Origin: Alphaproteobacteria bacterium
GTDB lineage: Bacteria > Pseudomonadota > Alphaproteobacteria > Bin95
DNA: 64,000 bases
Assembly (NCBI GenBank): GCA_964291285.2
Contig: OZ219787.1
Coordinates: 448,001 to 512,000, forward strand
Direction: 5' to 3'
The notes beneath the pieces were generated by a model. That model made no database searches. It was not told where the DNA came from and saw only the letters and a program-made list of their open reading frames with translations. Of the stretch, positions 3,871 to 28,010 are shown piece by piece. Position 1 is the first letter of the stretch. Each line of letters begins with the position of its first letter. A program made the translations under genes and the position numbers.

Positions 3871-4208
3871 GGACAGGCTCCGTTCTGGAAGGGCGTGACG
3901 GCGGCCGGCGGCGCAAGTCCTCCCGCGCCGCCCGCCGGACCGCCCTCGGACGGCTGACCGGACTCCCGCCGGCGGGACGCACGAAGACGCGAAGATGGAG
4001 GGAATTGGCCGGAACAGCGGACGGTCCGCCCGGGCCGTGTCAGTGGGGCTGCGGAGGGCGCTCAGGCATGAAGACGGATAAGTACGGCCGCGGCAAAATC
4101 GGCCGCAGCGTTGCCGATAGCAGCCGGAATTCTCGAATCGTAGTCAGGCGATGATTGAGCCGATGAACGAAAGATGGAGCCGGCGCCGTTCAGGGCGGGC
4201 GGACCGGA

Positions 4209-4835
4209 TCAGCCGAACCGTTTGCCATCCCCGGTAAAGGTGAAGGAGTTCACGGCGAGGGCCTCGTCGCCGGCCGGGTCGGAGATCTCGGCCTCTCAGG
4301 CGTCGCGCAACTGCCTGTAGAGCCAGCGGGCCAGGTCGCGGAGGGCGACGGTATCGCCGGCACCCGCCGCGATCGGCTGCCGGGCTGTCGCGCTCGACGC
4401 GGATTTCCATGCTGTTTGCGTGGAAATGACGGCCGACACGGCGGAAAGTTGTGTGCAGGGAATGGAAGTTGCGGTGCAGGGCGTCCTGGAGGGCGTCGAC
4501 GATGCCGTGGAGTTCGGTGTCCTCGGGCGCGTGGGCGCGGACGGCCTTCGCGGCGCCGCGGGCATGGCTGTACCGGCCCTCGAACGAGGCGCCGTCTTCC
4601 TGGCTGCCGAACCCGCTGAACCATATGTTCGACCGTTCCCGGGTTCCGCCGCCATGGAGGTGCACGGCATGGGTGTCGAGCGTGATGCCGACGATCCGGC
4701 AGACGGTCTCGAAGTCGTCGAGGACATGGTCGTACCATTCGTCGAAGAGGCCCTCGTCGCGATACCGGGCGCGGGCCCTCTCCTTCGCTGCGTCCGAAAG
4801 CTCGTCGATCGTGCAGATCGTGATCTCGATGACCT
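4209..4835 (-). pseudogene. Degraded conserved ICE protein (family often auto-annotated 'antitoxin of toxin-antitoxin stability system')
   Basis: VIEITICTIDELSDAAKERAR...IWFSGFGSQEDGASFEG...ERDSP, then a frameshift near 4385 to ALRDLARWLYRQLRDA*, then in frame NSFTFTGDGKRFG*. No ATG after the AGGAG RBS. Family name is from recall. Confidence 0.65.
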
Positions 4836-17086: not shown

Positions 17087-17349
17087 GCACAGAAAACAAG
17101 GAATCGAGCGCCGAAACGGATGACGACAATCCGGCCGACGCGACCAATGGTGGAGAACCTGCCACGCCGCAGACCAACTTTGACCGGCTGATCGCGCATC
17201 TGCCCGAGGACAGCCTCGCCGCGAAACTCGTGACCGCCTACGCGGCGTCAGGCGAGGCAGCACCCGCCGATGCCATCGCAGAGGTCGCCGCAAACCGTCT
17301 CGATGAACTGAAGCAGAGCCATGACAACACTGAAGATCAACAAGATTGA
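17083..17349 (+). CDS. Small acidic hypothetical protein (88 aa)
   Basis: ATGA overlap with the upstream gene and overlap with the downstream ATPase start. Confidence 0.6.
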   Translation: MSTENKESSAETDDDNPADATNGGEPATPQTNFDRLIAHLPEDSLAAKLVTAYAASGEAAPADAIAEVAANRLDELKQSHDNTEDQQD

Positions 17350-17965
17350 GATGCAGGGCTTCCGGGCTTTCGGCCGGAAGGCACAGACGCTGTCCTTCGG
17401 CTCGTCACTGGCCGCCATCTGGGCACCGAACAGCCAGGGCAAGACCAGCCTTGCCGAGGCGTTCGAGTTCCTGCTGACCGGACAGATCGTCCGTCGCCAG
17501 CTCTTGGCCAGCACCCAGGACGAATTCGCTGACGCCCTGCGCAACGCCCATATGCCAGCCGCCATACCCACATACGTCGAGGCGGAGATCACCGGCATTG
17601 ACGGCCGGACGCACAACGTCAGGCGGACACTGATCTCGGACTACGCCAAGCGGAAAGACTGCCAGTCAGCCCTGCAGATCGACGGCGTCGAGGCTAATGA
17701 AAGCGATCTCGCCACCCTCGGCATCGTGCTCTCGCAACCGCCCCTCGCGGCGCCGGTCCTCGCTCAGCACACGCTCGGTTATCTCTTTTCCGCCCGGCCG
17801 CAGGACCGCGCCACGTATTTCAAGAGGATCCTTGAAGTCACGGATCTGGAAGAACTGCGAGGCGCGGTGGCGGGGCTCGACGCCGGGTTCAAGCCCGATG
17901 ACGGCGACCGCCACTTAAGCCGGCTTGCTGCTGCCGCAGCCATCGAGAACGCGGAGCCACTTCTA
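17321..17965 (+). pseudogene. SMC/RecF/Rad50-like ABC ATPase, N-terminal 215 codons, truncated by IS5
   Basis: KINKIEMQGFRAF, Walker A WAPNSQGKTSLAEAFEFLLTG, Q-loop VLAQ. The sequence switches to the IS end after CTA at 17963-17965 and the remainder is absent from the window. Confidence 0.85.
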
Positions 17966-18038
17966 GGTCGTGTACCCATAAGGGGTTTCTTCTTCAGCGC
18001 AGCTGTGATTCAAGCTCCCAACTTCAGGGAACGAGGAC

Positions 18039-18530
18039 ATGGGCCGGTACGATCTGACGGACTTCGAATGGCGGGTGATCAAGCCGTTGCTGCCGAACAA
18101 GACCCGTGGGGTGCCGCGGGTTGACGACCGGCGGGTGTTGAACGGCATTCTGTGGGTGCTTCGCGCGGGGGCGCCGTGGCGAGACCTGCCGGAGCACTAC
18201 GGGCCTTGTACGACCTGCTACAACCGGTTCAACCGCTGGCGCAAGAAGGGCATCTGGGATCAGTTGATGGATGCGGTGGTGGAGGCTCACGACGGCAATG
18301 TGCAGATGATCGACAGTTCGAGCGTCCGGGTTCACCAGCATGCGGCGGGATCAAAAAAGGGGGTCCGGATCGTTGCATGGGCCGTTCCCGTGGCGGACTG
18401 ACCACGAAGATCCACGCCGTGTCGGACGTGAGCGGCCTGCCGGTCCGCTATGACCTCAGCCCTGGCCAGGCGCACGACACCACGGCCGCCGGTGCCATGC
18501 TGGCGACCCTGCCGCCCGACAGTTTCCTCA
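18039..18530 (+). pseudogene. IS5 transposase (orfA 18039-18401 + frameshifted orfB), disrupted
   Basis: RYDLTDFEW, GAPWRDLPEHYG, MIDSSSVRVHQHAAG. A6G slippery site at 18353-18359, then GRSRGGLTTKIHAV. Confidence 0.92.
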
Positions 18531-18770
18531 TGTAGGTGACGGTCGTAAAAGGCGCTTATTTGCTGGCGTTGCGCGTTTTTGCGGGGCGTGATGATCGCAG
18601 TGATTGTGGTGCGGCGGTGTTTGTGACGGGGGCCTGGGACGGAAGGAGGGCGTAGCCCGACTGGAGTCGCCGGCCCCCGTCGCGTTGATATTTTCGCCTG
18701 CCGAGGGGAGGGTGTCCTGGCGCTGTCGGCGGGGGTCGCCGGGCTGCGCGAGGGGGTAGACTGGGGCTGC

Positions 18771-18899
18771 TGAGAACGATGCGGCGCCGGCCCCGTTTGC
18801 TAGGTGGCAACGACCGGCGCCGCACCCCCCGAGCCATGCAAGGCACGGCCCGTATGCGCAGTATCGTAGGCGTTCGGGCGTGGGTCCACCCCGTTCTCA
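18771..18899 (+). ncRNA. Putative structured leader RNA in the IS21-like element
   Basis: Closing stem TGAGAACG/CGTTCTCA encloses hairpins TGCGGCGCCGG/CCGGCGCCGCA and CACGGCCCG/CGGGCGTG. A TAGACT -10-like box lies at 18757-18762. Structure was judged by eye only. Confidence 0.4.
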
Positions 18900-19182
18900 T
18901 CGGTCTTTGCGATGAGGAACGCCGCCCGCCTGTTCACCTGCGCTTCGTGCCATCGCCAGGTTGTGCTGTGCCGGCGGTGCGACCACGGCAACATCTACTG
19001 CTCGCGTCCGTGCAGCGGCCGGGCGCGGCGGCGCTCGCTGCGCCTTGCCGGGCGTCGCTACCAGAACAGCCGGCGGGGCCGTCACAAGCATGCCGAACGC
19101 CAGCGGCGCTACCGCGAGCGCCGTCGCGTCCGTGCGCCTGAGGAGGGGCGCCGTGCGCAGAAAGTGACGCATCACCCTTTGA

Positions 19183-21089
19183 CCCAACTTGAACAGTCGG
19201 TGTCGATTTTTGCCGGGCGCGGTTTCGCCAAGTTGTTGAAATGATTGGATAGTGAGGTGATGATTGGCGCGGGTTGAGAAAAATGTAGTGAAACATTTTT
19301 GCTGATTTGGCCTTGTTTTCTTGATTGGTCGATATCGAAGACATACAACGCGGTCATGTTCGTGCGCGAAACGACCGCCCGGGGCCACCGCTATCTCTAC
19401 CTCGTGGAGAGCGTGCGCGAGGGCAAGCGGGTGCGCCAGCGCACGATCCGCGCGCTCGGCCGCAAGGACGTGTTGCAGGCGAGCGGGGAGCTGGACCGTC
19501 TGATCGCGTCCCTGGCGCGCCATTCGGAGCGGTCCGTGGTGCTGGAGGACATGGAGGCGGGCGCGCTGGCCTGCGTGCGGGTCGGCGGTCCGCTGCTGTT
19601 CGGTCGGCTGTGGGATCGGCTGGGCGTGGGCGCTGTCGTGAAGGAGCTTCTGGACGGTCGCGGCTTCGGGTTCGCCGTCGAGCGGGCGGTGTTTGTGAGC
19701 GTTCTGCACCGTCTGTTCGTGTCGGGTTCGGACCGGTCGTGCGAGAAGTGGATGGCCGACTACGCGATCGAGGGGATCGAGGGGCTGCGGCTTCATCAGC
19801 TGTATCGGGCGATGGCCTGGCTCGGGGAGGAGCTGGAGGCGCCGGCGGAAGGCGCGCTTGCGCCGCGCTGCGTGAAGGACGGGATCGAGGAGCGTCTGTT
19901 CGAGCACAGGCGGGACCTGTTCACCGACCTGTCTGTGGTGTTCATGGACACCACGACGCTGTCGTTCCACGGCGCGGGCGGCGAGACGCTGGGCGCGCAC
20001 GGCTACTCGAAGGACCATCGCCCGGACTTGCGCCAGATGGTTCTGGCGGTGGTGCTGGACGGCGAGGGCCGGCCTGTGTGCACGGAGATGCTGCCGGGCA
20101 ACACGGCCGACACCAGGGTGCTGCTGCCGATCGTGGACCGTCTTCGGTCACGCTTCGGGATCGGTCGTGTGTGCGTGGTGGCGGACCGGGGGATGATCTC
20201 GGCGGCGACGATAGCGGCGCTGGAAGAGCGGGGGCTGGACTACATCCTGGGCGCGCGCGAGCGGCGCACGAAGGTGGTCCGCGAGGTGGTGCTGAAGGAC
20301 ACGAAGCCCTTTGTGCCGCTGCTCCTCAAGCGTCCGCGCGGCGAGACGCAGCTGTTCGTGAAGGAAGTCACGGTGGGCGGCGCGCGCTACATCGTGTGCC
20401 GCAACGAGGCGGAGGCACAGAAGGACCGCGCCGACCGGCAGGCCGTGGTGGACGGCCTCCAGCGCCGCCTTGCGGACGGCGAGAAAGCGCTGATCGGCAA
20501 CAGCGCCTACCGGCGTTATCTGCGCCGCACGGGCGCGGGCAAGGCGTTCGAGATCGACGCCGGCAAGCTCGCCGAGGAGGCCGGCTTCGACGGCATCTTC
20601 GTGCTGCGCACCAACGCCGGCATGACGCCGCTCAATGCCGTGCTCCGCTACCGGGAGCTGCTCACGGTGGAAGACCTGTTCCGCCGGGCGAAGGCCCAGT
20701 TGCGCACCCGCCCGATCTACCACTCCTGCGACGCCGCGATCCGCGGCCACGTCTTCTGCTCCTTCCTCGCGCTCGTCCTCCAGAAGGAACTGGCCGACCG
20801 CTGCGCCGCCGCCAACGTCAACGTCGAATGGGACGACCTGATCCGCGATCTCGACCGCCTGCAAGAGGCCACCATCGAGAAGGACGGCAAGCGCATCACC
20901 ACCCGCACCCATGTCGAGGGCCAGGTCGGAAAGGTCTTCCAGGCCGTCGGCATCGCGCTGCCGCCGAACTGGCGCGAACACAAAGCCTGACCGTCCCCAA
21001 AATCAACGAAATGTAGTGGGTACACCCGGCGATGCCGGTGTAACTCCCTGTTCTATCGAATACTTTTAATCGTCACTGTTGAAGTTGGG
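19183..21089 (+). mobile_element. IS1634-family insertion sequence (1907 bp)
   Basis: IR CCCAACTTGAACAG / CTGTTGAAGTTGGG. 5-bp duplication TTTGA (19178-19182 and 21090-21094). Confidence 0.92.
19356..20990 (+). CDS. IS1634 transposase
   Basis: YLYLVESVREGKRVRQRTI, FMDTTT, GYSKDHRPDLRQ, VVADRGMIS, VEDLFR, RPIYH. Confidence 0.93.
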   Translation: MFVRETTARGHRYLYLVESVREGKRVRQRTIRALGRKDVLQASGELDRLIASLARHSERSVVLEDMEAGALACVRVGGPLLFGRLWDRLGVGAVVKELLDGRGFGFAVERAVFVSVLHRLFVSGSDRSCEKWMADYAIEGIEGLRLHQLYRAMAWLGEELEAPAEGALAPRCVKDGIEERLFEHRRDLFTDLSVVFMDTTTLSFHGAGGETLGAHGYSKDHRPDLRQMVLAVVLDGEGRPVCTEMLPGNTADTRVLLPIVDRLRSRFGIGRVCVVADRGMISAATIAALEERGLDYILGARERRTKVVREVVLKDTKPFVPLLLKRPRGETQLFVKEVTVGGARYIVCRNEAEAQKDRADRQAVVDGLQRRLADGEKALIGNSAYRRYLRRTGAGKAFEIDAGKLAEEAGFDGIFVLRTNAGMTPLNAVLRYRELLTVEDLFRRAKAQLRTRPIYHSCDAAIRGHVFCSFLALVLQKELADRCAAANVNVEWDDLIRDLDRLQEATIEKDGKRITTRTHVEGQVGKVFQAVGIALPPNWREHKA

Positions 21090-21259
21090 TTTGACCCGTT
21101 CACCGCGCCGTCCTGTTGTGGCGGGCATGCCGGCGGGGCGCTCGGGAAGGAGGCCCTTCGGACCCGACCGTCCCGCCGGAGTGTTCCGCTGCGATCACTG
21201 CGGGCGGTTCTGCGCCCGGGCGGTCTATCCGGGCCTGCGCCCGGCGCGAAGGGAGTGAG

Positions 21260-22765
21260 ATGGCGATCGACCAGCAGACCCGGGCCGAGATCCTGCGGCT
21301 GTATTTTGCCGAGAAGTGGCGGATCGGCACGATCGCGCGCCAGCTCGGCGTCCACCACGGCACGGTCGAGCGCGCGGTGGCGGCCGCCGGGGCGCCCACG
21401 CCTGAGAAGCGGCGCAGATCTTCGATGATCGATCCGTTCCTGCCCTTCGTCCGCCAGACCCTGGCGGTCTGGCCGAAGTTGCCCTCCAGCCGGCTCTACC
21501 GGATGGCGGTCGAGCGCGGTTACCGGGGGTGCGAGAGCCACTTCCGGCGCATGATCGCGCCCGAGCGTCCGCGGCCGGTGGCCGAGGCCTATCTGCGCCT
21601 CAAGGCCCTGCCCGGCGAGCAGGCCCAGGTCGACTGGGCCCACTTCGGCAAGGTGAGGATCGGGCGTGCGGAGCGCCCGCTGATGGCCTTCGTGATGGTG
21701 CTCGGCCACTCGCGCCGCCTCTTCCTGCGCTTCTACCTCAACGCCGGGATGGACAACTTCCTGCGCGGCCATGTCGAGGCCTTCGAGGCTTGGCAGGGCG
21801 TGCCCCGCGAGCTCTGGTACGACAATCTGAAGAGCGTCGTGCTGGAGCGGCGCGGCGACGCCATCCGCTTCAATCCCCGGCTTCTCGACTTCGCAGGCGC
21901 CTACCGCTTCCTGCCGAAGCCGGTCGCGGTCGCCCGAGGCAACGAGAAGGGCCGCGTCGAGCGGGCCATACGCTATGTGCGCGACAGCTTCTTCGCCGCC
22001 CGCGCCTGGCGTGACCTCGACGATCTCAACGCCCAGGCCCGGGAGTGGTGCGAGGGCGTCGCCGCCGACCGCCCCTGGCCGGACGACCGCTCCCTCACCG
22101 TGAGCGAGGCCTTCGAGCGCGAGCGCGGCTCCCTGATGGCGCTGCCCGACGACCGTCCCCCCGTCGACGAGAGGGTCGAGGTCAGGATCGCCAAGACCCC
22201 CTATGCCAGGTTCGACCTCAATGACTACAGCGTCCCGCATACCCATGTCCGGCGCACCCTCACCGTGGCCGCGACGCTGGAAGAGGTGCGCATCCTCGAC
22301 GGCATGGAGGTCATCGCCCGCCATCCGCGCAGCTTCGACAAGGCGGCCCGCATCGAGAACCCCGAACACATTGAGGAGCTGGTCAGGCGCAAGCGTCACG
22401 CCCGCAGCCTGCGCGGGCAGAGCCGGCTGCTCCAGGCCGCGCCCAACAGCGAGCGCCTGATCGCCGAGGCCGCCCCCCGCGGCGCTTATATCGGCGCCAC
22501 CGTCGCCGCCCTGCTGCGCCTGCTCGACCAATACGGCGCCGCCGAGCTCGAAGCCGCCATCGACGAGGCCCTCGAACGCGGCGTCCCCCATCCCAATGCC
22601 GTGCGCCTCAGCCTCACACGGCGGCGCGAACTGCAGGACAGGCCGCCGCCGATCCCCATCGACCTGCCCAGGGACCCGCGCGTGCGCGACATCGCCGTGC
22701 GCGATCACGATCTCGGCGGATACGACGGGCTGGCCGGCTACCATGAAAAGGACAGCGAAGAATGA
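21260..22765 (+). CDS. istA: IS21 transposase IstA
   Basis: N-terminal HTH, PGEQAQVDWA, WYDNLKS, EKGRVERAIRY. Confidence 0.95.
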   Translation: MAIDQQTRAEILRLYFAEKWRIGTIARQLGVHHGTVERAVAAAGAPTPEKRRRSSMIDPFLPFVRQTLAVWPKLPSSRLYRMAVERGYRGCESHFRRMIAPERPRPVAEAYLRLKALPGEQAQVDWAHFGKVRIGRAERPLMAFVMVLGHSRRLFLRFYLNAGMDNFLRGHVEAFEAWQGVPRELWYDNLKSVVLERRGDAIRFNPRLLDFAGAYRFLPKPVAVARGNEKGRVERAIRYVRDSFFAARAWRDLDDLNAQAREWCEGVAADRPWPDDRSLTVSEAFERERGSLMALPDDRPPVDERVEVRIAKTPYARFDLNDYSVPHTHVRRTLTVAATLEEVRILDGMEVIARHPRSFDKAARIENPEHIEELVRRKRHARSLRGQSRLLQAAPNSERLIAEAAPRGAYIGATVAALLRLLDQYGAAELEAAIDEALERGVPHPNAVRLSLTRRRELQDRPPPIPIDLPRDPRVRDIAVRDHDLGGYDGLAGYHEKDSEE

Positions 22766-23556
22766 CCGACACCCTCATGAACCGCGCCCGCGCGCTGGGC
22801 CTGCACGGCCTCCTCGCCCATTGGGGCGAAGTCGCGGAGCGCGACTGGCTCGCCTCCCTGATCGCGTGGGAAGAAGATGAGAAGCGCGCCCGAAGCCTCA
22901 AACGCCGCCTCGCCGACGCCCGCCTCGGACAGTTCAAGCCGCTCGCAGACTTCGACTGGGACTGGCCAAGGCGCTGCGACCGCATGGCCGTCGAGGACCT
23001 CATGACCCTCGACTTCCTCAAGGAGGCCGCAAACCTCGTACTGGTCGGACCCAACGGCGTCGGAAAGTCCACCATCGCCGCCAATATCGCCCACCGCGCC
23101 GTCCTCGAAGGCCACATCGTGCGCTTCGCAACCGCCGCCAGCCTGCTCGGCGAACTCGCCGCCATCGACTCCGACACCCTGCTCCAGCGCAGGCTGCGCT
23201 TCTACGCCCGACAGCACCTGCTGGTCATCGACGAAGTCGGATATCTCTCCTACTCCAACCGCCACGCCGACCTGCTGTTCAACATCGTCTCAAGCCGCAG
23301 CCAGCAGAACTCAACCATAATCACCACGAACCGCCCCTTCGCCGAGTGGAGCGAGGCCTTCCCAAACGCCGCCTGCCTGGTCGCCCTCGTCGACCGGCTC
23401 GTCCACAACGCCGAGATCGTCGCCATCGACGGCGACTCCTGGCGCCGCAAGGAAGCCGAGGAACGTCAGAAGCAGCGCAGCGCCGAACGCCGCCGCCGGC
23501 GCGGACCGAAAGCCGGGCAAAGCACTGGAAAGGCGAACCCGGTCCCGTCGCCATAG
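22762..23556 (+). CDS. istB: IS21 helper ATPase IstB
   Basis: GPNGVGKS, LLVIDEVGY, ITTNRPFAEW, VDRLVH, GDSWR. ATGA overlap with istA. Confidence 0.95.
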   Translation: MTDTLMNRARALGLHGLLAHWGEVAERDWLASLIAWEEDEKRARSLKRRLADARLGQFKPLADFDWDWPRRCDRMAVEDLMTLDFLKEAANLVLVGPNGVGKSTIAANIAHRAVLEGHIVRFATAASLLGELAAIDSDTLLQRRLRFYARQHLLVIDEVGYLSYSNRHADLLFNIVSSRSQQNSTIITTNRPFAEWSEAFPNAACLVALVDRLVHNAEIVAIDGDSWRRKEAEERQKQRSAERRRRRGPKAGQSTGKANPVPSP

Positions 23557-23558
23557 CC

Positions 23559-24431
23559 ATGCATCCCTCCCGCCCCCGCGAGCGGCGGGTGCGGGCCGAG
23601 AGCCTGCGGGGCTATCCCCTCGAACCCGTCGCCCGAGCCCTCGGCTACCGCAGCGATCCCGACAATGCCGTGCGCTGGAGACGGCCAGGATCGGTCCTCT
23701 CCATCAACCGCTTCATGTTCTACGACCATCTGCGCGCAGAGGAGGGAGCCGGGGCTATCGAACTGGCGGTCCATGCGCTCGGATGCACCCCGCCGGACGC
23801 CATCGACTTCCTCGCCGAACTGTCCGACCTCTCAATGCCCCCAGGCGGCCGCCGGCAGGCGCCGGCCAAGGACCCCCGCTGGCCCAACCTCCGGCGATAC
23901 CTCGTCGAGCGGCGCGGCCTCGCGGACGCGCTCGTCACCCTGTGCCGCGACCTCGGCCTGGTCCATGCCGACCCTCACGGCAACCCCGTGTTCGTCCGCC
24001 GAAACGCCGCCGGCGAGGCTACCGGCATCGAAACCGTCACCGCTGACCGCAAAACGACCGCGGGCGGCGGCTTCTGGATGTCCTGGGAGACCGAATGGCC
24101 ACACGCCGTCATCCTGGCCGGCAACGCCCTCGACGCACTCTCCATCCTCTCCCTCCACCTCGGCCCGGTAAAACGCACCGAATGCGCCACCGTCTCCACC
24201 GGCGCCGTCGCCACCAAAGTCCCCAAATGGATCGAGGCATGGAACCCGCGCCTCATCTTCTGTGCATACGACGCCACCACAAACGGCGATCACGCCGCAA
24301 GGCGCCTCGCCCGCAACGACACCAGAATCGTCCGGCTGCGACCCGCACTCGACAACCGGGACTGGAACGACATGCTCATCCGCGACCGAGCCGGCGAACC
24401 AATCGAAACCGATGACCAACAGATCAACTGA
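23559..24431 (+). CDS. DUF3991/Toprim-like passenger protein (290 aa) with degenerate catalytic acids
   Basis: FYDH...GAGAIELAVH primase-like N-region, RRYLVERRGL, ILAGNALDALS, VSTGA, FCAYDATTNGD, RDWNDML. Starts 2 nt after the istB stop and ends inside the right IS end. Confidence 0.8.
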   Translation: MHPSRPRERRVRAESLRGYPLEPVARALGYRSDPDNAVRWRRPGSVLSINRFMFYDHLRAEEGAGAIELAVHALGCTPPDAIDFLAELSDLSMPPGGRRQAPAKDPRWPNLRRYLVERRGLADALVTLCRDLGLVHADPHGNPVFVRRNAAGEATGIETVTADRKTTAGGGFWMSWETEWPHAVILAGNALDALSILSLHLGPVKRTECATVSTGAVATKVPKWIEAWNPRLIFCAYDATTNGDHAARRLARNDTRIVRLRPALDNRDWNDMLIRDRAGEPIETDDQQIN

Positions 24432-24652
24432 AAAACCGCAACCGGCCGAAAAATGTCAGCGAATAGGCGCGCTCTGTAACCGTCGCTAACACCTCATCGC
24501 CGACAAGGCCTGTGACGCCAAATGGATCCGTGACCTGATCGAGCAACACGATGCCGTCCCGATCATCCCCGACCGCGAAGGCGCGAAGACCAGGCACGCT
24601 TTCTCCAAACCCTTGTATAAATTCAGACTTCCTGACCTCTGCTAATTTTGTT

Positions 24653-25679
24653 CCTGCTTATTCTCAAGGATCATCCTGCAATGAGTAGTTGATATGGGAT
24701 GGGTTGTGTTCTGACGGCGCTGTGAAGGAAGCGTGGGATCATGGAGTTGAGTTGGTATCGTCGGTTGTATCGCCATGCGAAGCTGGCGAGGTAGCGTTCG
24801 GCATGGTCGGGACCGAGCTTTCGGTAGGTTCCGGCGATGGCGCTCTTGATGTTGCCGAGGGTCGTGTTGACCCATTTGAAGGGGGCCATGCGGGCTGCCC
24901 GGCGGCCTGAGCCGGTACGGATGGCGCTGTGGCTTGCGGCGATGCCGTCGAGGGCGTTCCAGCAGTGCAGGGCATCGGTGACGACCTCCGTCCCCGGGGC
25001 CAGCCAGCGTTTGGCGCCGCGCGCGATCTCGCGCTTGCGGAAGCCCCTGACCGGGACGAGCTTGACCTTGCGCGGAGCCCCTTCGGCGCTGGTCGAGACC
25101 GCCGCCACGAAGGGCGTCTTGCCCGGCGCGCCCCGGCCGCGCTTGCCGCCGGAGCGCGACCCGCCGAGATAGGCGTCGTCCATCTCGACCCGTCCTTCGA
25201 GCCGCGTGTCGGCTTCGCGCCGGGCCATCACCGCCATGATCTTCTGCTTCATGCTCCAGGCGGTCGGCTGCCTGACCCCGAGGCGGCGACCGAGTTCCAC
25301 CGACGAAATGCCGTTCTTCGCCGTCACCACAAGGTGGATCGCCGCAAACCACAACGTCAGGGGCAGCTTGGTCGAGTGGAAGATCGTCCCCGACGTCACC
25401 GAAACCTGCTTCTTGCAGCGGTTGCACTGGTAAAGCCTGCGCCCGGCAAGAATGCAGTGCCCCCGATGCCCGCAGGAGCCGCACTCGAAACCGTTCGGCC
25501 AGCGCAATCGGGCTAGCACCGCCCGGCACTGATCCTCCGTGCCGAACGACGCTCGGAACGCATCGTCGCTCAAGCCACGAACACGCGATGCAACCTTGAA
25601 TGCCATATCCATGACCTCCCGATAACAGAAACCCTTCCAAACCTACAATCTCACAAGATGACTCTCAAGAATAAGCAGG
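24653..25679 (-). mobile_element. IS1595-family insertion sequence (1027 bp)
   Basis: IR CCTGCTTATTCTCAAGGATCATC vs CCTGCTTATTCTTGAGAGTCATC. 8-bp duplication ATTTTGTT (24645-24652 and 25680-25687). Confidence 0.93.
24671..25612 (-). CDS. IS1595 transposase
   Basis: Zn ribbon CGSCG...CNRC, SVTSGTIFH, VEMDDAYLGG, VTDA, WVNTTLGNIK, RYNRR. Confidence 0.95.
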   Translation of the reverse strand: MDMAFKVASRVRGLSDDAFRASFGTEDQCRAVLARLRWPNGFECGSCGHRGHCILAGRRLYQCNRCKKQVSVTSGTIFHSTKLPLTLWFAAIHLVVTAKNGISSVELGRRLGVRQPTAWSMKQKIMAVMARREADTRLEGRVEMDDAYLGGSRSGGKRGRGAPGKTPFVAAVSTSAEGAPRKVKLVPVRGFRKREIARGAKRWLAPGTEVVTDALHCWNALDGIAASHSAIRTGSGRRAARMAPFKWVNTTLGNIKSAIAGTYRKLGPDHAERYLASFAWRYNRRYQLNSMIPRFLHSAVRTQPIPYQLLIAG

Positions 25680-28010
25680 ATTTTGTTTGGCACCGGTGCG
25701 CGCGGATTTTGGGGTTATGCCGACCTCGTAGACCATGCGCATACGGTTGCCGGGGAAGTGCGTTTCGGTGGCGTTGAGTTCGGCCAGAAGAGGCTTGATC
25801 TGGCGGTCGCAGGCGTCATTTGCGAGGCCGAGAATGCGGACCCGCAGGACGCCGTTGGCAGGGTCCGGCAGGATGTCGGCATCGGCGGTGAAGAGTGCCT
25901 GAAGCAGTTTCCGGGGGTGGGGCTTGTGGCCCTGCGCCTGCATGACGGGAAGCATCAAGCGGGTTTCAGCGCGGTAGGCGATCATGCGGATGATGTCGAG
26001 TAGGAGGCGCTCGCGTGAGGGCAAGGCATTGAGCTGTCCGGCTTCGTCGAGGTCGCCGGCCCGGCAGTGCGTGGGCACCTCCCTGCGGCTGGATCTGACA
26101 ATCTCACGGCCGCCCTCGAGGTCCCTGAGTTCCCTCTTGAGTTCGCCCGTCGGCTGCTTCCTGTGGGCGGCGTCGGCGATGCGGTTGCGCAGGCGGCCAA
26201 GCTGGTGGTCGAGGCGGCGGATTGCCTTGTCGTAGGCCCGCCGCAGCGGGCTGACGACCATGGTATCGGCAGCGAGAGGCTCGATCTCGTGGGTCGGCAG
26301 GGCGTCGAGATTGAACTCGTCGCGCATGTATTTGAAGAAGTTTTCCTGCGACCAGCGCGAGAACAAGGCGCCTGCGGCCTCCGCCACCGGCTTGTGCGGA
26401 TCGGTGGTGACCAGCGGAACCTGACGGCCGTTGTCGAGCAGGCGGCGGATCTGGCGCACCCTGAAGCCGTTCTTCAACGTCACCGGCTTCTCGGCCAGCA
26501 GCATGGTGGCGCTGGCGTTCGCCGCGGGTCCGTGAATGGGAACGATCATCGCACTGAAGTCCTCGGCCGGCCAGTCCCCGCCCCTGAAGTTCTTGTGCCA
26601 GGTCAGGCAGGCAATGCCGCGCCTGGCCAGCCGGCGAAACAGCTCCGGGCTCCAGCCCTCGCGGTCGAAGACCAGTGTGAGCACGGGCTGGCCGGGCTGC
26701 CCGGCGGTCAGGTCCGCTGCCCCGGCGTCGACGATCCCGAGCGCCTGCAACGCCGGCACCACGTCGGATTCGATCGCGGCGACCATCTTCGGGTCCAGCG
26801 GCTTGTGCAGGCACAGCAGGGGCTTGCCGCCCAAGGCGTTGATCCAGTAGCTGGTGCTCGCCGGCAGGCACAGCTTCTCGCGCGAGACGAAGTGTTTGGG
26901 CAGGCGCCCCTTGCGGCCGGCGTAGACCTTGACGTGCCCGTCAACGGCCAGCGTCGCCCAGAGCTCGGGCTCCTCCTCCTGCCAGCGTCTCGCAAGAGCG
27001 AGCTGCCACGCCTGCACGCTGGCTTCGTCGTTGGCCATGAGCCCGATCTTGCGCCGTAGCGTCTTGACCTCGGGGCAGCGGTCGAGACCGAGAACCGCAC
27101 CCCATTCGCCCGGTGCCTGGTAGCGCAGGCTCTCGGGGTTGCGCACCCGCGCCAGGGTCATGAAGGCCAGGAAGAGCAGGATCGTGGGCAGGCCGTAGTA
27201 GCCCTTCGACAGCAACGGCAGGAGGCCGGTCTCGCAGAGCAGGCCTTCCTTCAGCAGGGCCGGCAGGGCGGCGAGAACGCCGCCAAAGCGCACGCCGCGG
27301 GCGGCGGCGGTGAACTGCGGTTCGACCGGTCCCGCCTGCCCGCAGCTGGCCAACACCCGAGCCCGGACATCGCAAGTCGCGCGCCCCATCGGCGCCTGCC
27401 GGTCCCGCCGGTCGCGCGCGCTGCGATCCGTCTGCGCCTCCAGCCCCGCTGCCGTCGCCGGCCCGGCGGCACCGGCACTCTCGTCATCGACACTGCCCTC
27501 GGGCGCCCCACCCGCGTCAGGCGGCACCGCCACTGCCGCGCTGCCGCGCTCCCGACACGCCTCCGCGTTGCCGATCACCCCCTGCCGCCGCCACTTGTTG
27601 ACCGACGGCGCTGACACGCCGAGAACTCGGGCCACCGCAGAGCCGCTCAGGCCCCCTTCCAGCAACGCCGTCGCTTTCTCCGCCAGCTCCGGCGTGAACA
27701 CCGAAGGTCCCCGACCGCGCCGGGGCTTCAGAAACTCCGCTTCGCCCTCGGCCAGGTAGCGCCGTCGTGCGCGCTGGACCGTTGCACGCGAGACACCGAA
27801 AGCGTCGGCCAGATCCTGCCGCGAGACCGCGCTGATCGCAGCCAGGCGGCCGATCCGCAACAGCATGGCCGCGCGGTCATCGGCGGCGTGGCTGTCAAAG
27901 GGAACGAGGTTGGAGAAGTAGGTGAAGCTGTCGTCCGAAATCAGAATGGCGAAACAACTGCTGCCGATCGGAACCGCCTCCGGAGGGCTCAGGGGAAGGG
28001 TAATCGACAT
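25665..28010 (-). CDS. Large putative DDE transposase (781 aa; native end ...KQN*)
   Basis: Two N-terminal HTHs, AVDGHVKVY, VFDREGW, SRWSQENFFKY, coiled-coil insert. Fills the IR-bounded element. Confidence 0.85.
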   Translation of the reverse strand: MSITLPLSPPEAVPIGSSCFAILISDDSFTYFSNLVPFDSHAADDRAAMLLRIGRLAAISAVSRQDLADAFGVSRATVQRARRRYLAEGEAEFLKPRRGRGPSVFTPELAEKATALLEGGLSGSAVARVLGVSAPSVNKWRRQGVIGNAEACRERGSAAVAVPPDAGGAPEGSVDDESAGAAGPATAAGLEAQTDRSARDRRDRQAPMGRATCDVRARVLASCGQAGPVEPQFTAAARGVRFGGVLAALPALLKEGLLCETGLLPLLSKGYYGLPTILLFLAFMTLARVRNPESLRYQAPGEWGAVLGLDRCPEVKTLRRKIGLMANDEASVQAWQLALARRWQEEEPELWATLAVDGHVKVYAGRKGRLPKHFVSREKLCLPASTSYWINALGGKPLLCLHKPLDPKMVAAIESDVVPALQALGIVDAGAADLTAGQPGQPVLTLVFDREGWSPELFRRLARRGIACLTWHKNFRGGDWPAEDFSAMIVPIHGPAANASATMLLAEKPVTLKNGFRVRQIRRLLDNGRQVPLVTTDPHKPVAEAAGALFSRWSQENFFKYMRDEFNLDALPTHEIEPLAADTMVVSPLRRAYDKAIRRLDHQLGRLRNRIADAAHRKQPTGELKRELRDLEGGREIVRSSRREVPTHCRAGDLDEAGQLNALPSRERLLLDIIRMIAYRAETRLMLPVMQAQGHKPHPRKLLQALFTADADILPDPANGVLRVRILGLANDACDRQIKPLLAELNATETHFPGNRMRMVYEVGITPKSARTGAKQNPAYS

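What the first reader, a model, noticed from the sequence alone, without database searches (positions are those of the whole stretch)
18531..24491. Candidate new system: four-gene IS21-like element with structured leader, zinc-finger protein and pseudo-Toprim
Seen: within one pair of TGT...ACA ends and a 5-bp duplication lie a 380-bp structured leader, a 144-aa ORF with 9 Cys and an Arg-rich helix ending 1 nt before istA, istA, istB, and a 290-aa Toprim-like ORF starting 2 nt after istB. Known: canonical IS21 elements carry only istA/istB. IstB is related to TnsC/MuB, which in Tn7-like elements is steered by accessory target selectors (TniQ/TnsD contain zinc fingers; TnsE recognises replication structures). 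Inference: the extra ORFs may be integral regulators or target-selection factors, making this a minimal Tn7-like targeting transposon rather than a simple IS.
Basis: partly seen in the sequence, partly recalled or inferred. Interest (0 to 1): 0.78.

Follow-up and report, generated by a model that had tools for sequence, protein, structure and literature searches.

The report
Four-gene IS21 element with leader RNA
This is one broken copy of a very active jumping gene of the IS21 kind that, unlike the textbook two-gene form, always carries a conserved folded RNA leader, a small zinc/arginine-rich protein and a dead primase-like protein whose roles are untested.

Summary
Window 18531-24491 is one copy of a 4,049-bp IS21-family element (TGT...ACA ends, 5-bp duplication CCTCA). 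It sits inside an IS5-family element, and an IS1634-family insertion in ORF1 breaks it. The genome holds 22 near-identical copies, 16 of them intact.

All four genes move together. ORF4 lies directly after istB in 79 of 79 related loci. The primase-like elements form one IstA branch (100/100).

ORF1 (zinc-ribbon-like plus Arg-rich helical hairpin, no Pfam, NCBIfam or PDB relative) and a ~170-nt leader with compensatory base changes mark a much larger IS21 subgroup. ORF1 has 3,832 representative clusters. The leader's last hairpin buries ORF1's start codon.

ORF4 has the DnaG-primase fold but lacks the zinc ligands and key Toprim acidic residues. Its nearest kin are plasmid MobV-relaxase DUF3991-Toprim modules. 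Sister elements carry, in the same slot, a ~70-aa protein that often has an SSB-like acidic C-terminal tip.

Insertion sites show no sequence consensus, so Tn7-like site targeting is unsupported. My best reading is that leader and ORF1 control expression, and that ORF4 is a non-catalytic adaptor to replication-linked DNA or proteins. Both functions are inferred. It is a new variant of a known kind.

The parts
18526..18530 (.). left copy of the 5-bp target-site duplication CCTCA
18531..18570 (+). left terminal inverted repeat (TGTAGGTGACGG...GCGCTTATTTGCTGG), with a terminator-like hairpin plus T-run at 18551-18570
   Evidence: Alignment of 16 elements. Terminator-like site in the identical copy L009 at 521-540 (1 found against 0.4 expected, so not significant).
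18747..18920 (+). conserved structured leader (5' UTR of ORF1). P1 is 18780-18790 paired with 18814-18824. P2 is 18835-18839 paired with 18843-18847. P5 is 18894-18902 paired with 18910-18918 and buries the ORF1 AUG.
   Evidence: Covariance model R1 gives a single hit in the 64-kb window, 115.6 bits, E 6e-29. Pair counts. Per-sequence folds. No Rfam family at E<=1.
18912..19182 (+). ORF1, 5' part (codons 1-90): Cys-rich zinc-ribbon-like N-terminus and Arg-rich helical hairpin; broken here by the IS1634-family insertion
19183..21089 (+). secondary insertion, not part of the element: IS1634-family IS (transposase 19356-20990), flanked by TTTGA at 19178-19182 and 21090-21094
   Evidence: comparison with the intact copy. 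NF033559 373 bits. About 20 further copies in the genome.
21095..21258 (+). ORF1, 3' part (C-terminal CxxCxxxC knuckle); its stop TGA at 21256-21258 lies 1 nt before the istA ATG
21260..22765 (+). istA, DDE transposase (501 aa)
   Evidence: NF033546 244.4 bits, cut-off 160. Mu-transpos_C_2 and rve.
22762..23556 (+). istB, AAA+ helper ATPase (264 aa); overlaps the istA stop by 4 nt
   Evidence: PF01695 186 bits. NF038214 208.1 bits, cut-off 200.
23559..24431 (+). ORF4 (290 aa): DnaG-primase-fold protein (degenerate zinc-binding domain, then DUF3991, then Toprim) that lacks the Toprim Glu (G188) and the second Asp of DxD (T240)
24450..24491 (-). right terminal inverted repeat (...GCGAATAGGCGCGCTCTGTAACCGTCGCTAACA)
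24492..24496 (.). right copy of the 5-bp target-site duplication CCTCA

Best explanation
SHOWN. The locus is one inactivated copy of a 4,049-bp IS21-family insertion sequence that transposes as a single unit. The unit consists of the inverted repeats, a structured ~170-nt leader, ORF1, istA, istB and ORF4. The four genes are packed head to tail (1 nt gap, 4 nt overlap, 2 nt gap). The leader and ORF1 are an old module shared by a large, so far undescribed IS21 subgroup. ORF4 was acquired once, within one branch of that subgroup. It comes from the DUF3991-Toprim (DnaG-like) lineage that is otherwise fused to or beside plasmid MobV relaxases. In this branch ORF4 has lost the residues a primase needs.

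INFERRED. (a) The leader is the 5' UTR of the ORF1-istA-istB-ORF4 message. Its last hairpin pairs the ORF1 start codon, so translation is off by default. ORF1 is a zinc-ribbon protein with an arginine-rich helical hairpin and probably binds nucleic acid, most likely this leader RNA and less likely the element's ends. Because ORF1's stop abuts the istA start, ORF1 would set how much IstA and IstB is made. That would make it a post-transcriptional regulator of transposition.

(b) ORF4 acts without catalysis, as an adaptor made together with IstB. It would tie the IstA/IstB machinery to replication-type DNA (single-stranded or primed DNA) or to replisome proteins. Its role would lie either in choosing where to insert or in getting the gapped insertion product repaired. 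The same slot in sister elements holds a ~70-aa protein whose acidic C-terminus often resembles the SSB tip, which points to the same interface.

No sequence-specific targeting is involved.
For: Unit and mobility
- 22 copies, 16 of them exactly 4,049 bp and about 100% identical; 14 of 22 have a perfect 5-bp duplication.
- IstB lies just upstream of ORF4 in 79 of 79 loci from 21 assemblies, and the four-gene order is complete in 64 of 79.
- On the IstA tree the ORF4-type elements form one branch with 100/100 support.
- dN/dS is below 1 for all four genes.

Leader
- RNAalifold finds P1 with all 7 pairs compensatory.
- 23 pairs are 87.2% paired against 23-43% when slid, and 17 pairs change on both sides.
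- On 38 matches, 37 of them not used to build the model, 88.9% are paired and 20 of 23 pairs change on both sides. That alignment is fitted to the model.
- The model hits 44 of 57 held-out ORF1 or IstA loci on the + strand.
- Per-sequence folds place the AUG in the last stem, with the Shine-Dalgarno often in the loop.
- A sigma70-like CTGACA-16-TAGACT lies just upstream of the leader in a relative.

ORF1
- Invariant C10, C13, C20, C23, C30, C34 and the RRYQ..RGR.KHAERQRRYR motif.
- AF2 gives beta hairpins plus a helical hairpin at 32-74 with pLDDT above 90.
- IstA starts within 500 nt downstream in 62 of 67 loci with room.
- ORF1 is present but unannotated upstream of istA in named plasmids.
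- 3,832 representative clusters at E<=1e-3.

ORF4
- AF2 pLDDT 82.6.
- Foldseek top hits are the Aquifex DnaG zinc-binding plus polymerase domains (E 9.8e-6), E. coli DnaG core, Twinkle and T7 gp4.
- Loss of catalytic residues.
- 86 plasmid records at under 30% identity, mostly MobV relaxases or 'DUF3991 and TOPRIM' proteins.

Slot equivalence
- Small ORFs overlapping the istB stop in 8 of 8 named plasmid loci.
- 17 of 19 metagenomic small ORFs end in F, and 13 of 19 in PF after acidic residues.
- Endings such as NDEIPF resemble this genome's own SSB ending, DLDDDIPF.
Against: - No experiment or transcript map exists. The only RNA-library trace is one 243-nt contig over ORF4 in a metatranscriptome, and that could be DNA.
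- In the window's own element the -35 of the putative promoter is not recognisable.
- ORF1 binding to RNA is inferred from composition and position only. It could equally bind DNA.
- ORF4 evolves fastest of the four genes (dN/dS 0.55) and is confined to one branch, as cargo would be.
- The SSB-tip likeness holds only for part of the small ORFs; other endings are SSL, PND and AIT. ORF4's own conserved tip (ETDDRxI) is different.
- Neither orientation bias nor a target motif was seen.
Confidence: 0.55

Rival explanations
1. ORF1 (TniQ/TnsD-like zinc finger) and ORF4 (TnsE-like sensor of replication structures) are target selectors that steer IstB. The element would then be a minimal Tn7-like targeting transposon.
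For: - ORF4 is made right behind IstB (2-nt gap) and has a DNA-template-binding primase fold without catalysis.
- The 4th slot is modular across relatives: an SSB-tip-like peptide, a dead primase, and a ParB-HTH ORF in L124. This recalls the modular Tn7 selectors.
- 9 of 22 insertions touch DNA present in 5 or more copies, against 99 of 600 random windows.
Against: - No target consensus at 14 clean sites.
- Duplications are 5-7 bp at unrelated sequences in four other genomes.
- No orientation bias against GC skew (9 of 22; the skew is weak, so the test has low power).
- ORF1 has no Pfam match in 23 of 23 members and no PDB sequence match at E<=10.
- ORF1 sits upstream behind a regulatory-looking leader rather than next to IstB.
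- The enrichment in repeats used an 'either flank' criterion and can come from selection against insertions in genes.
Confidence: 0.2
2. ORF4 is a passenger gene with no role in transposition, for example a plasmid-biology or defence-related factor picked up from a mobilisable plasmid. It is kept because it helps the host or the element's carrier.
For: - Its relatives outside the element are plasmid MobV or DUF3991-Toprim proteins.
- It is confined to one IstA branch.
- It has the highest dN/dS of the four genes.
- The IS21 subgroup works without it elsewhere.
Against: - It always takes the same position, 2 nt or a few tens of nt after istB, in 79 of 79 loci.
- It took the place of another istB-coupled gene rather than being added elsewhere.
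- Its catalytic residues are lost yet the fold is kept under purifying selection.
- It is retained in all 16 exactly 4,049-bp copies of a burst of 22.
Confidence: 0.15
3. ORF1 is a DNA-binding transposition cofactor or repressor that recognises the element's ends or subterminal repeats, as small upstream proteins of other IS families do (recalled: IS1 InsA, IS911 OrfA). The leader would then be only a translational brake against read-through transcription.
For: - Zinc-ribbon plus basic helices fit DNA binding as well as RNA binding.
- The start-codon hairpin alone explains a brake function.
- A terminator-like hairpin sits in the left end.
Against: - The leader keeps about 170 nt with several helices and conserved single-stranded motifs (CACCCC, AGUAU). 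That is far more than a start-codon hairpin needs.
- The leader and ORF1 stay together even where IstA is only 29% identical and a ParB-HTH gene intervenes (L121, L123, L124).
Confidence: 0.25

Closest known systems
Canonical IS21 family elements (IS21, IS5376)
   Same: IstA DDE transposase and IstB AAA+ helper in the same order with overlapping reading frames. Terminal inverted repeats ending 5'-TG...CA-3'. Short duplications of variable length. NCBIfam equivalog scores above cut-off for both proteins.
   Different: Papers describe the family as two ORFs. [quoted passage not shown] PMC11208146 (passages read) says 'encodes two essential proteins'. This element is 4,049 bp and adds a conserved structured leader, ORF1 upstream and ORF4 downstream. 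In plasmids its IstA clade is set off by a gap: 52-63% identity, then at most 38%.
Sister IS21 subgroup elements in named plasmids (Aromatoleum aromaticum EbN1, Alicycliphilus denitrificans BC, Methylotuvimicrobium alcaliphilum 20Z, Burkholderia, Mesorhizobium)
   Same: Same leader motif, same ORF1 abutting istA, and IstA 56-63% identical.
   Different: The fourth gene is a 61-73-aa 'hypothetical protein' overlapping the istB stop, not the 290-aa primase-like ORF4. In these records ORF1 is unannotated or only partly annotated.
DnaG-type primases and plasmid MobV-relaxase DUF3991-Toprim modules
   Same: ORF4 shares the fold: a zinc-binding-domain-like sheet, the polymerase N-subdomain (DUF3991) and Toprim. 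It is 25-30% identical over about 95% of its length to the plasmid proteins.
   Different: No Cys/His zinc ligands in the N-terminal domain. The Toprim Glu is G188 and the second Asp of DxD is T240. There is no C-terminal helicase-binding domain (290 aa in all) and no relaxase. It lies inside an IS.
Tn7 target selectors (TnsD/TniQ, TnsE)
   Same: Accessory proteins encoded beside a transposase plus AAA+ regulator pair. TnsE senses replication-linked DNA structures (recalled), a role a dead primase could also fill.
   Different: No sequence or profile similarity was found. There is no attachment-site-like target and no TnsA.
Translational-control hairpins in IS10/IS50 leaders (recalled, not checked here)
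   Same: A stem that buries the transposase-operon start codon.
   Different: Here the stem is only the last element of a longer, multi-helix leader that is conserved with covariation. It precedes a dedicated small protein rather than the transposase. There is no Rfam match.

Membership tests
IS21 family insertion sequence | IstA-type DDE transposase | tested here: met
   NF033546 244.4 bits against cut-off 160. Mu-transpos_C_2 2.2e-24.
IS21 family insertion sequence | IstB AAA+ helper encoded directly downstream of istA | tested here: met
   PF01695 186.2 bits. NF038214 208.1 bits against cut-off 200. istB starts 4 nt before the istA stop.
IS21 family insertion sequence | terminal inverted repeats and short target duplications at independent insertion sites | tested here: met
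   TGT...ACA ends are identical in 22 copies. Fourteen of 22 have a perfect 5-bp duplication and one has 7 bp. Duplications are 5-7 bp in relatives.
IS21 family insertion sequence | only two ORFs (as the family is described in print) | tested here: not met
   Four conserved ORFs plus a leader. Printed description in PMC10122671 and PMC11208146. This departs from the usual description; it is not a defining mechanistic feature.
DnaG-type (Toprim) primase | zinc-binding domain plus polymerase N-subdomain plus Toprim fold | tested here: met
   Foldseek hits 2au3 at E 9.8e-6 with 352 aligned columns, then 1eqn, 5w33 and T7 gp4, on a model with pLDDT 82.6.
DnaG-type (Toprim) primase | Cys/His zinc ligands in the N-terminal domain | tested here: not met
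   No Cys in residues 1-75 of P0002. The invariant residues there are W40, R41, F54, H57, G63 and G65.
DnaG-type (Toprim) primase | Toprim metal-binding Glu and DxD | tested here: not met
   The Glu position is G188 (E in 4 of 20 aligned relatives). The second Asp is T240 (D in 3 of 20). The assignment of the motif positions is recalled.
Pfam DUF3991 (PF13154) / Toprim_2 (PF13155) | score above the gathering threshold | tested here: inconclusive
   DUF3991 scores 28.0 against 24.5, which is met. Toprim_2 scores 19.3 against 22.1 and Toprim_3 scores 16.5 against 27.2, both below cut-off.
Tn7-like transposon with target selector | TniQ/TnsD-family protein | tested here: not met
   ORF1 has no Pfam family in 23 of 23 members at E<=0.01 except one stray Eapp_C hit. 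No PDB sequence match at E<=10. No significant Foldseek hit.
Tn7-like transposon with target selector | insertion at a defined attachment site or with a fixed orientation to a target feature | tested here: not met
   Diverse targets without consensus. Orientation against GC skew is 9 of 22 (low power).
Any Rfam RNA family (leader) | covariance-model match | tested here: not met
   0 matches at E<=1 on the intact copy L009.

The most novel reading that the evidence does not exclude
The leader RNA and ORF1 form a ribonucleoprotein that takes part in transposition itself, not only in expression. For example, it might license transpososome assembly. The gene slot behind istB would hold interchangeable adaptors (an SSB-tip mimic, a dead DnaG-like primase, a ParB-HTH protein) that couple the IstB target-capture machine to replication forks, incoming conjugative single-stranded DNA or partition complexes. 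That would be an IS21-based counterpart of the modular target selectors of Tn7, with an RNA component.
Probability: 0.12. Interest if true: 0.85.

Novelty: new variant of a known kind. Interest (0 to 1): 0.62.

Why it matters
IS21 is the structural model for transposases controlled by a dedicated AAA+ ATPase, and in print it is treated as a two-protein system (PMC10122671 and PMC11208146, passages read).

This work shows a large, unannotated IS21 subgroup with three further parts:
- a structured RNA leader supported by covariation;
- a dedicated zinc- and arginine-rich protein family without any Pfam or NCBIfam model (3,832 representative clusters);
- a swappable fourth gene linked by ancestry or motif to priming and SSB biology.

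If the parts act as inferred, they give a tractable case of how a simple IS tunes its own expression through an RNA-protein pair. They also show how an IstB-type machine can be connected to the replisome. That question is open for Mu and Tn7 relatives as well.

In practice, genome annotation misses ORF1 in all 8 named plasmid records inspected: it is unannotated in 6 and only partly annotated in 2. The element has expanded to 22 copies in one genome, so it is active and available for experiments.

Tried and rejected
- Co-fold of IstB with ORF4: the verdict was 'no answer' (score 0.12, mark 0.32). It is not evidence either way.
- RNA evidence: only one RNA-library run held any of the element. 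It had a single 243-nt contig over ORF4 at depth 3.2. It cannot show transcription, a start site or a strand.
- Orientation of the 22 copies against the GC skew of 100-kb flanks: 9 of 22. The skew in this genome is weak, so the test has little power.
- Enrichment in repeated DNA: 9 of 22 insertions have a flank in DNA present in 5 or more copies, against 99 of 600 random windows (binomial p about 0.006). The 'either flank' rule inflates this, and selection explains it as well as targeting does.
- Search for more distant ORF4 relatives with intact catalytic residues in genomes of the class: only the own genome matched (1 of 401). The genomic context of P0091, P0093 and P0094 therefore stays unknown.
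- Repeats between the leader and the element's ends, to look for a guide-like match: nothing convincing.
- Rfam search: no match.
- ORF1 against PDB by fold (best hit YacG, E 1.6), against PDB by sequence and against Pfam: nothing.
- The ESM Atlas shows only unnamed clusters.
- Literature searches:
  - 'IS21' with 'DUF3991': 0 papers.
  - 'IS21 family' with 'passenger gene': 5 papers, none relevant by title or abstract.
  - IS21, istA and istB with 'additional ORF', 'third ORF' or 'accessory gene': 7 papers, none relevant.
  - 'DUF3991' with 'Toprim': 1 paper, on Bacteroidales transfer.
- ISfinder could not be consulted, so named entries with these ORFs may exist there. Supplementary files of the IS21 structure papers were not seen.
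- Earlier findings of this scan: nothing to show.
- The sigma70 scan found no promoter in the window's own left end.

Full report
WHAT IS AT THE COORDINATES

The element runs from TGT (18531-18533) to ACA (24489-24491). It is flanked by CCTCA on both sides, at 18526-18530 and 24492-24496. It sits inside an IS5-family transposase gene (NF033580).

Inside the element, 381 nt precede a Cys-rich ORF that starts at 18912. In the window that ORF is cut by a 1,907-bp IS1634-family element at 19183-21089. The insert's own duplication is TTTGA, and its transposase scores 373 bits on NF033559.

Downstream lie three genes:
- istA at 21260-22765 (NF033546, 244 bits);
- istB at 22762-23556 (PF01695, 186 bits; NF038214, 208 bits);
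- a 290-aa ORF at 23559-24431 that matches DUF3991 above its threshold and Toprim models below theirs.

IT IS A MOBILE UNIT, AND A VERY ACTIVE ONE

The window's own genome (five contigs, 6.1 Mb) holds 22 copies. Sixteen are exactly 4,049 bp and about 100% identical. Two are 4,058 bp. Four, including the window's copy, carry secondary insertions.

Fourteen of the 22 copies have a perfect 5-bp duplication, each with a different sequence. One has a 7-bp duplication.

I read the intact gene set from a natural IS1634-free copy 46 kb away (L009):
- ORF1 is 144 aa with 9 Cys. Its stop lies 1 nt before the istA ATG.
- istA and istB overlap by 4 nt.
- ORF4 starts 2 nt after the istB stop.

IS THE FOUR-GENE LAYOUT CONSERVED?

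A scan of one genome per species with an ORF4 profile returned 79 loci from 21 assemblies. Most are alphaproteobacterial MAGs, several with 8-20 copies each.
- IstB lies directly upstream of ORF4 in 79 of 79 loci.
- The complete ORF1-istA-istB-ORF4 order is present in 64 of 79. The other 15 are cut by contig ends, interrupted or frameshifted.
- Median pairwise dN/dS over 15 elements (105 pairs) is 0.39 for ORF1, 0.34 for istA, 0.22 for istB and 0.55 for ORF4. It never exceeds 0.70.

The element is sporadic. An ORF4-like gene was found only in the own genome among 401 genomes of the class. It was absent from the same-genus and same-family genomes searched.

ORF1 AND THE LEADER DEFINE A MUCH LARGER IS21 SUBGROUP

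ORF1 has no Pfam match, no NCBIfam match, no PDB sequence match at E<=10 and no significant fold match.

Its family is nevertheless large. A profile search finds 3,832 representative clusters at E<=1e-3 and 2,568 at E<=1e-10.

The alignment shows:
- invariant C10, C13, C20, C23, C30 and C34;
- near-invariant C123 and C126;
- a basic motif, RRYQ.SRRGR.KHAERQRRYR.

AlphaFold places beta hairpins at the N-terminus and a confident helical hairpin at residues 32-74.

A metagenome scan gave 531 relatives, of which 80 loci were kept. In 62 of the 67 loci with at least 500 nt downstream, an IstA N-terminus (52-68% identical to ours) starts within 500 nt.

Three of the five exceptions (L121, L123, L124) carry the ORF1 homologue with a distant IstA/IstB pair, about 29% and 33% identical. 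In L124, the one inspected, a ParB-HTH ORF lies between them.

In plasmids, IstA relatives fall into a separate group at 52-63% identity. The next best is 38%.

In 8 named plasmid loci of that group:
- ORF1 is never properly annotated. It is nevertheless present, abutting istA, in 6 of the 8.
- The two exceptions have a replaced upstream region or a broken istA.

In an even sample of the phylum, ORF1 was found in 2 of 400 genomes besides the own genome.

THE LEADER IS A REAL CONSERVED STRUCTURE

Among close relatives, the ~170 nt before the ORF1 ATG are more conserved at the nucleotide level than the proteins. With distant members added, compensatory changes appear.
- RNAalifold recovers helix P1, with all 7 predicted pairs showing double changes.
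- Per-sequence folds give a shared architecture: a long P1 hairpin, a CACCCC linker, a short CGUGC/GCACG hairpin, a hairpin around an invariant AGUAU, a variable hairpin, and a final stem that pairs UCAUCG with CGAUGA. That last stem buries the ORF1 start codon, often with the Shine-Dalgarno in the loop.
- For 23 named pairs on 40 sequences, 87.2% of cells are paired against 23-43% with slid partners. Seventeen pairs change on both sides. None of 500 shuffles reaches the observed values.

A covariance model built from these sequences gives the following:
- It hits the window once, at 18747-18920 (115.6 bits).
- It hits 44 of 57 loci not used to build it, always on the ORF1 strand just upstream of ORF1.
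- On 38 matches, 37 of them held out, 88.9% of cells are paired and 20 of 23 pairs change on both sides. This alignment is fitted to the model, which favours the structure.

Rfam has no match. A sigma70-like CTGACA-16-TAGACT lies just upstream of the leader in a relative. In the window's element only the -10 hexamer is kept.

ORF4 IS A DEAD DnaG-TYPE PRIMASE OF PLASMID ANCESTRY

The AlphaFold model has pLDDT 82.6 and pTM 0.82. Its best structural matches are the Aquifex primase zinc-binding plus polymerase domains (E 9.8e-6), then the E. coli and M. tuberculosis DnaG cores, Twinkle and T7 gp4.

The residues a primase needs are missing (the motif positions are recalled):
- The N-terminal sheet has no Cys ligands.
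- The Toprim glutamate position is G188. It is E in 4 of 20 aligned relatives.
- The DxD motif reads D-A-T. The second Asp is kept in 3 of 20, the most distant ones.

Outside IS21 elements, the nearest relatives are 86 plasmid records at under 30% identity. Most are the C-terminal parts of MobV relaxases or stand-alone 'DUF3991 and TOPRIM domain' proteins.

On an IstA tree the ORF4-carrying elements form one branch (100/100) and the small-ORF elements lie outside it. The only outgroup is a very long branch, so the direction of change (small ORF replaced by ORF4) is the parsimonious reading and is not proven.

THE FOURTH SLOT IN SISTER ELEMENTS

In the wider subgroup, a 61-81-aa ORF overlaps the istB stop.
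- It is annotated as 'hypothetical protein' in 8 of 8 named plasmid loci.
- It carries the motif DW(S/T)PEQALAV.EL.DDLR..IW followed by an acidic tail.
- Seventeen of 19 metagenomic examples end in F, and 13 of 19 end in PF. Examples are DDIPF, DEIPF and DDPF.
- These endings resemble the C-terminal tip of this genome's own SSB, DLDDDIPF.
- Other examples end differently.

This is a lead, not a demonstration. It makes the slot look like an interface to SSB-binding or priming proteins. Replacement by a primase-fold protein fits that picture.

TARGETS

The 14 clean sites in the own genome show no consensus. Relatives make 5-7-bp duplications at unrelated sequences. Orientation does not follow GC skew (9 of 22; the skew is weak).

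Nine of 22 insertions have a flank in DNA present in 5 or more copies, against 99 of 600 random windows. This is suggestive, but it is also what selection against gene disruption would produce in an IS-rich genome.

Sequence-specific, Tn7-attachment-like targeting is therefore not supported. Structure- or replication-linked preference remains untested.

HOW IT MOST LIKELY WORKS

Shown: one transposing unit, four tightly packed genes, a conserved leader whose last stem pairs the first start codon, and an inactive primase fold.

Inferred:
- The leader holds translation of the operon down.
- ORF1, a zinc-ribbon protein with an arginine-rich helical hairpin, binds nucleic acid. Because it stays with the leader even when the transposase lineage changes, the leader RNA is the most likely ligand. 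ORF1 would thereby set IstA and IstB output.
- ORF4, made with IstB, serves as a non-catalytic adaptor to replication-type DNA or proteins. Its role would lie in target capture or in repair of the insertion product.

COMPARISON AND NOVELTY

The element meets the defining features of the IS21 family and departs from its printed two-ORF description (PMC10122671 and PMC11208146, passages read).

My searches of the paper library found no description of the extra genes or the leader. ISfinder and supplementary files could not be consulted, so curated entries listing these ORFs may exist.

I rate it a new variant of a known kind. It comes with one new RNA motif and two unmodelled protein families (ORF1 and the small fourth ORF).

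Noticed in passing
L092-L160 (metagenome loci); L169:7260-7451; L170:7194-7412; L182-L187 around 4033-4290: Sister IS21 elements carry a 61-81-aa ORF overlapping the istB stop. It has the motif DW(S/T)PEQALAV.EL.DDLR..IW and an acidic tail that often ends in DDIPF, DEIPF, DDPF or PPF, like the SSB C-terminal tip. No Pfam family matches.
   Followed up: partly
own genome G000, 39 places (e.g. C2:1258047-1258346; C3:445309-445611, just upstream of the window): 39 matches to the SSB family PF00436 above cut-off in one 6.1-Mb genome. This is an unusually high number and probably reflects many integrated mobile elements.
   Followed up: no
L124:625-4404 (also L121, L123): A variant layout: leader, an ORF1 homologue, a 341-aa ParB-HTH ORF (PF17762, 1.7e-7), then a distant IstA (29% identical) and IstB (33%). 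The leader-ORF1 module therefore travels with more than one IS21 lineage.
   Followed up: partly
window 18039-18530 and 24497-24640; 24671-25612 (-); 25665-28010 (-): A nest of insertion sequences. The element sits in an IS5-family transposase gene (NF033580). Next to it lie an IS1595-family transposase (179.5 bits) and a 781-aa ORF with only an IS630-like HTH match.
   Followed up: partly
window 19183-21089 and about 20 other places in G000: The IS1634-family element that breaks ORF1 is itself multi-copy at 99.6-100% identity, with about 20 full or partial copies. At least two IS families are therefore recently active in this genome.
   Followed up: partly
G000 C2:421955-426292: An older, diverged copy (86-95% identical) of the same element type, with an internal deletion from istA into istB.
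   Followed up: no
G000 C1:441022-445079 and C2:1199413-1195356: Two copies are 4,058 bp. They carry a 9-nt insertion and about 98.3% identity in the left 660 nt, which suggests a second sublineage of the element.
   Followed up: no
window 17321-18124 (+): A 267-aa ORF with a RecF/SMC-type N-terminal ATPase signature (weak NCBIfam hits, E about 1e-5). It appears to run into the IS5-family element, so it may be a gene truncated by insertion.
   Followed up: no
A1 alignment, last 10 residues of ORF4 (window 24402-24431): ORF4 ends in a conserved acidic tip, (E/Q)(T/I)DDR.(I/L)x. The model predicts this tip to be disordered (pLDDT below 50), so it may be a docking peptide.
   Followed up: no
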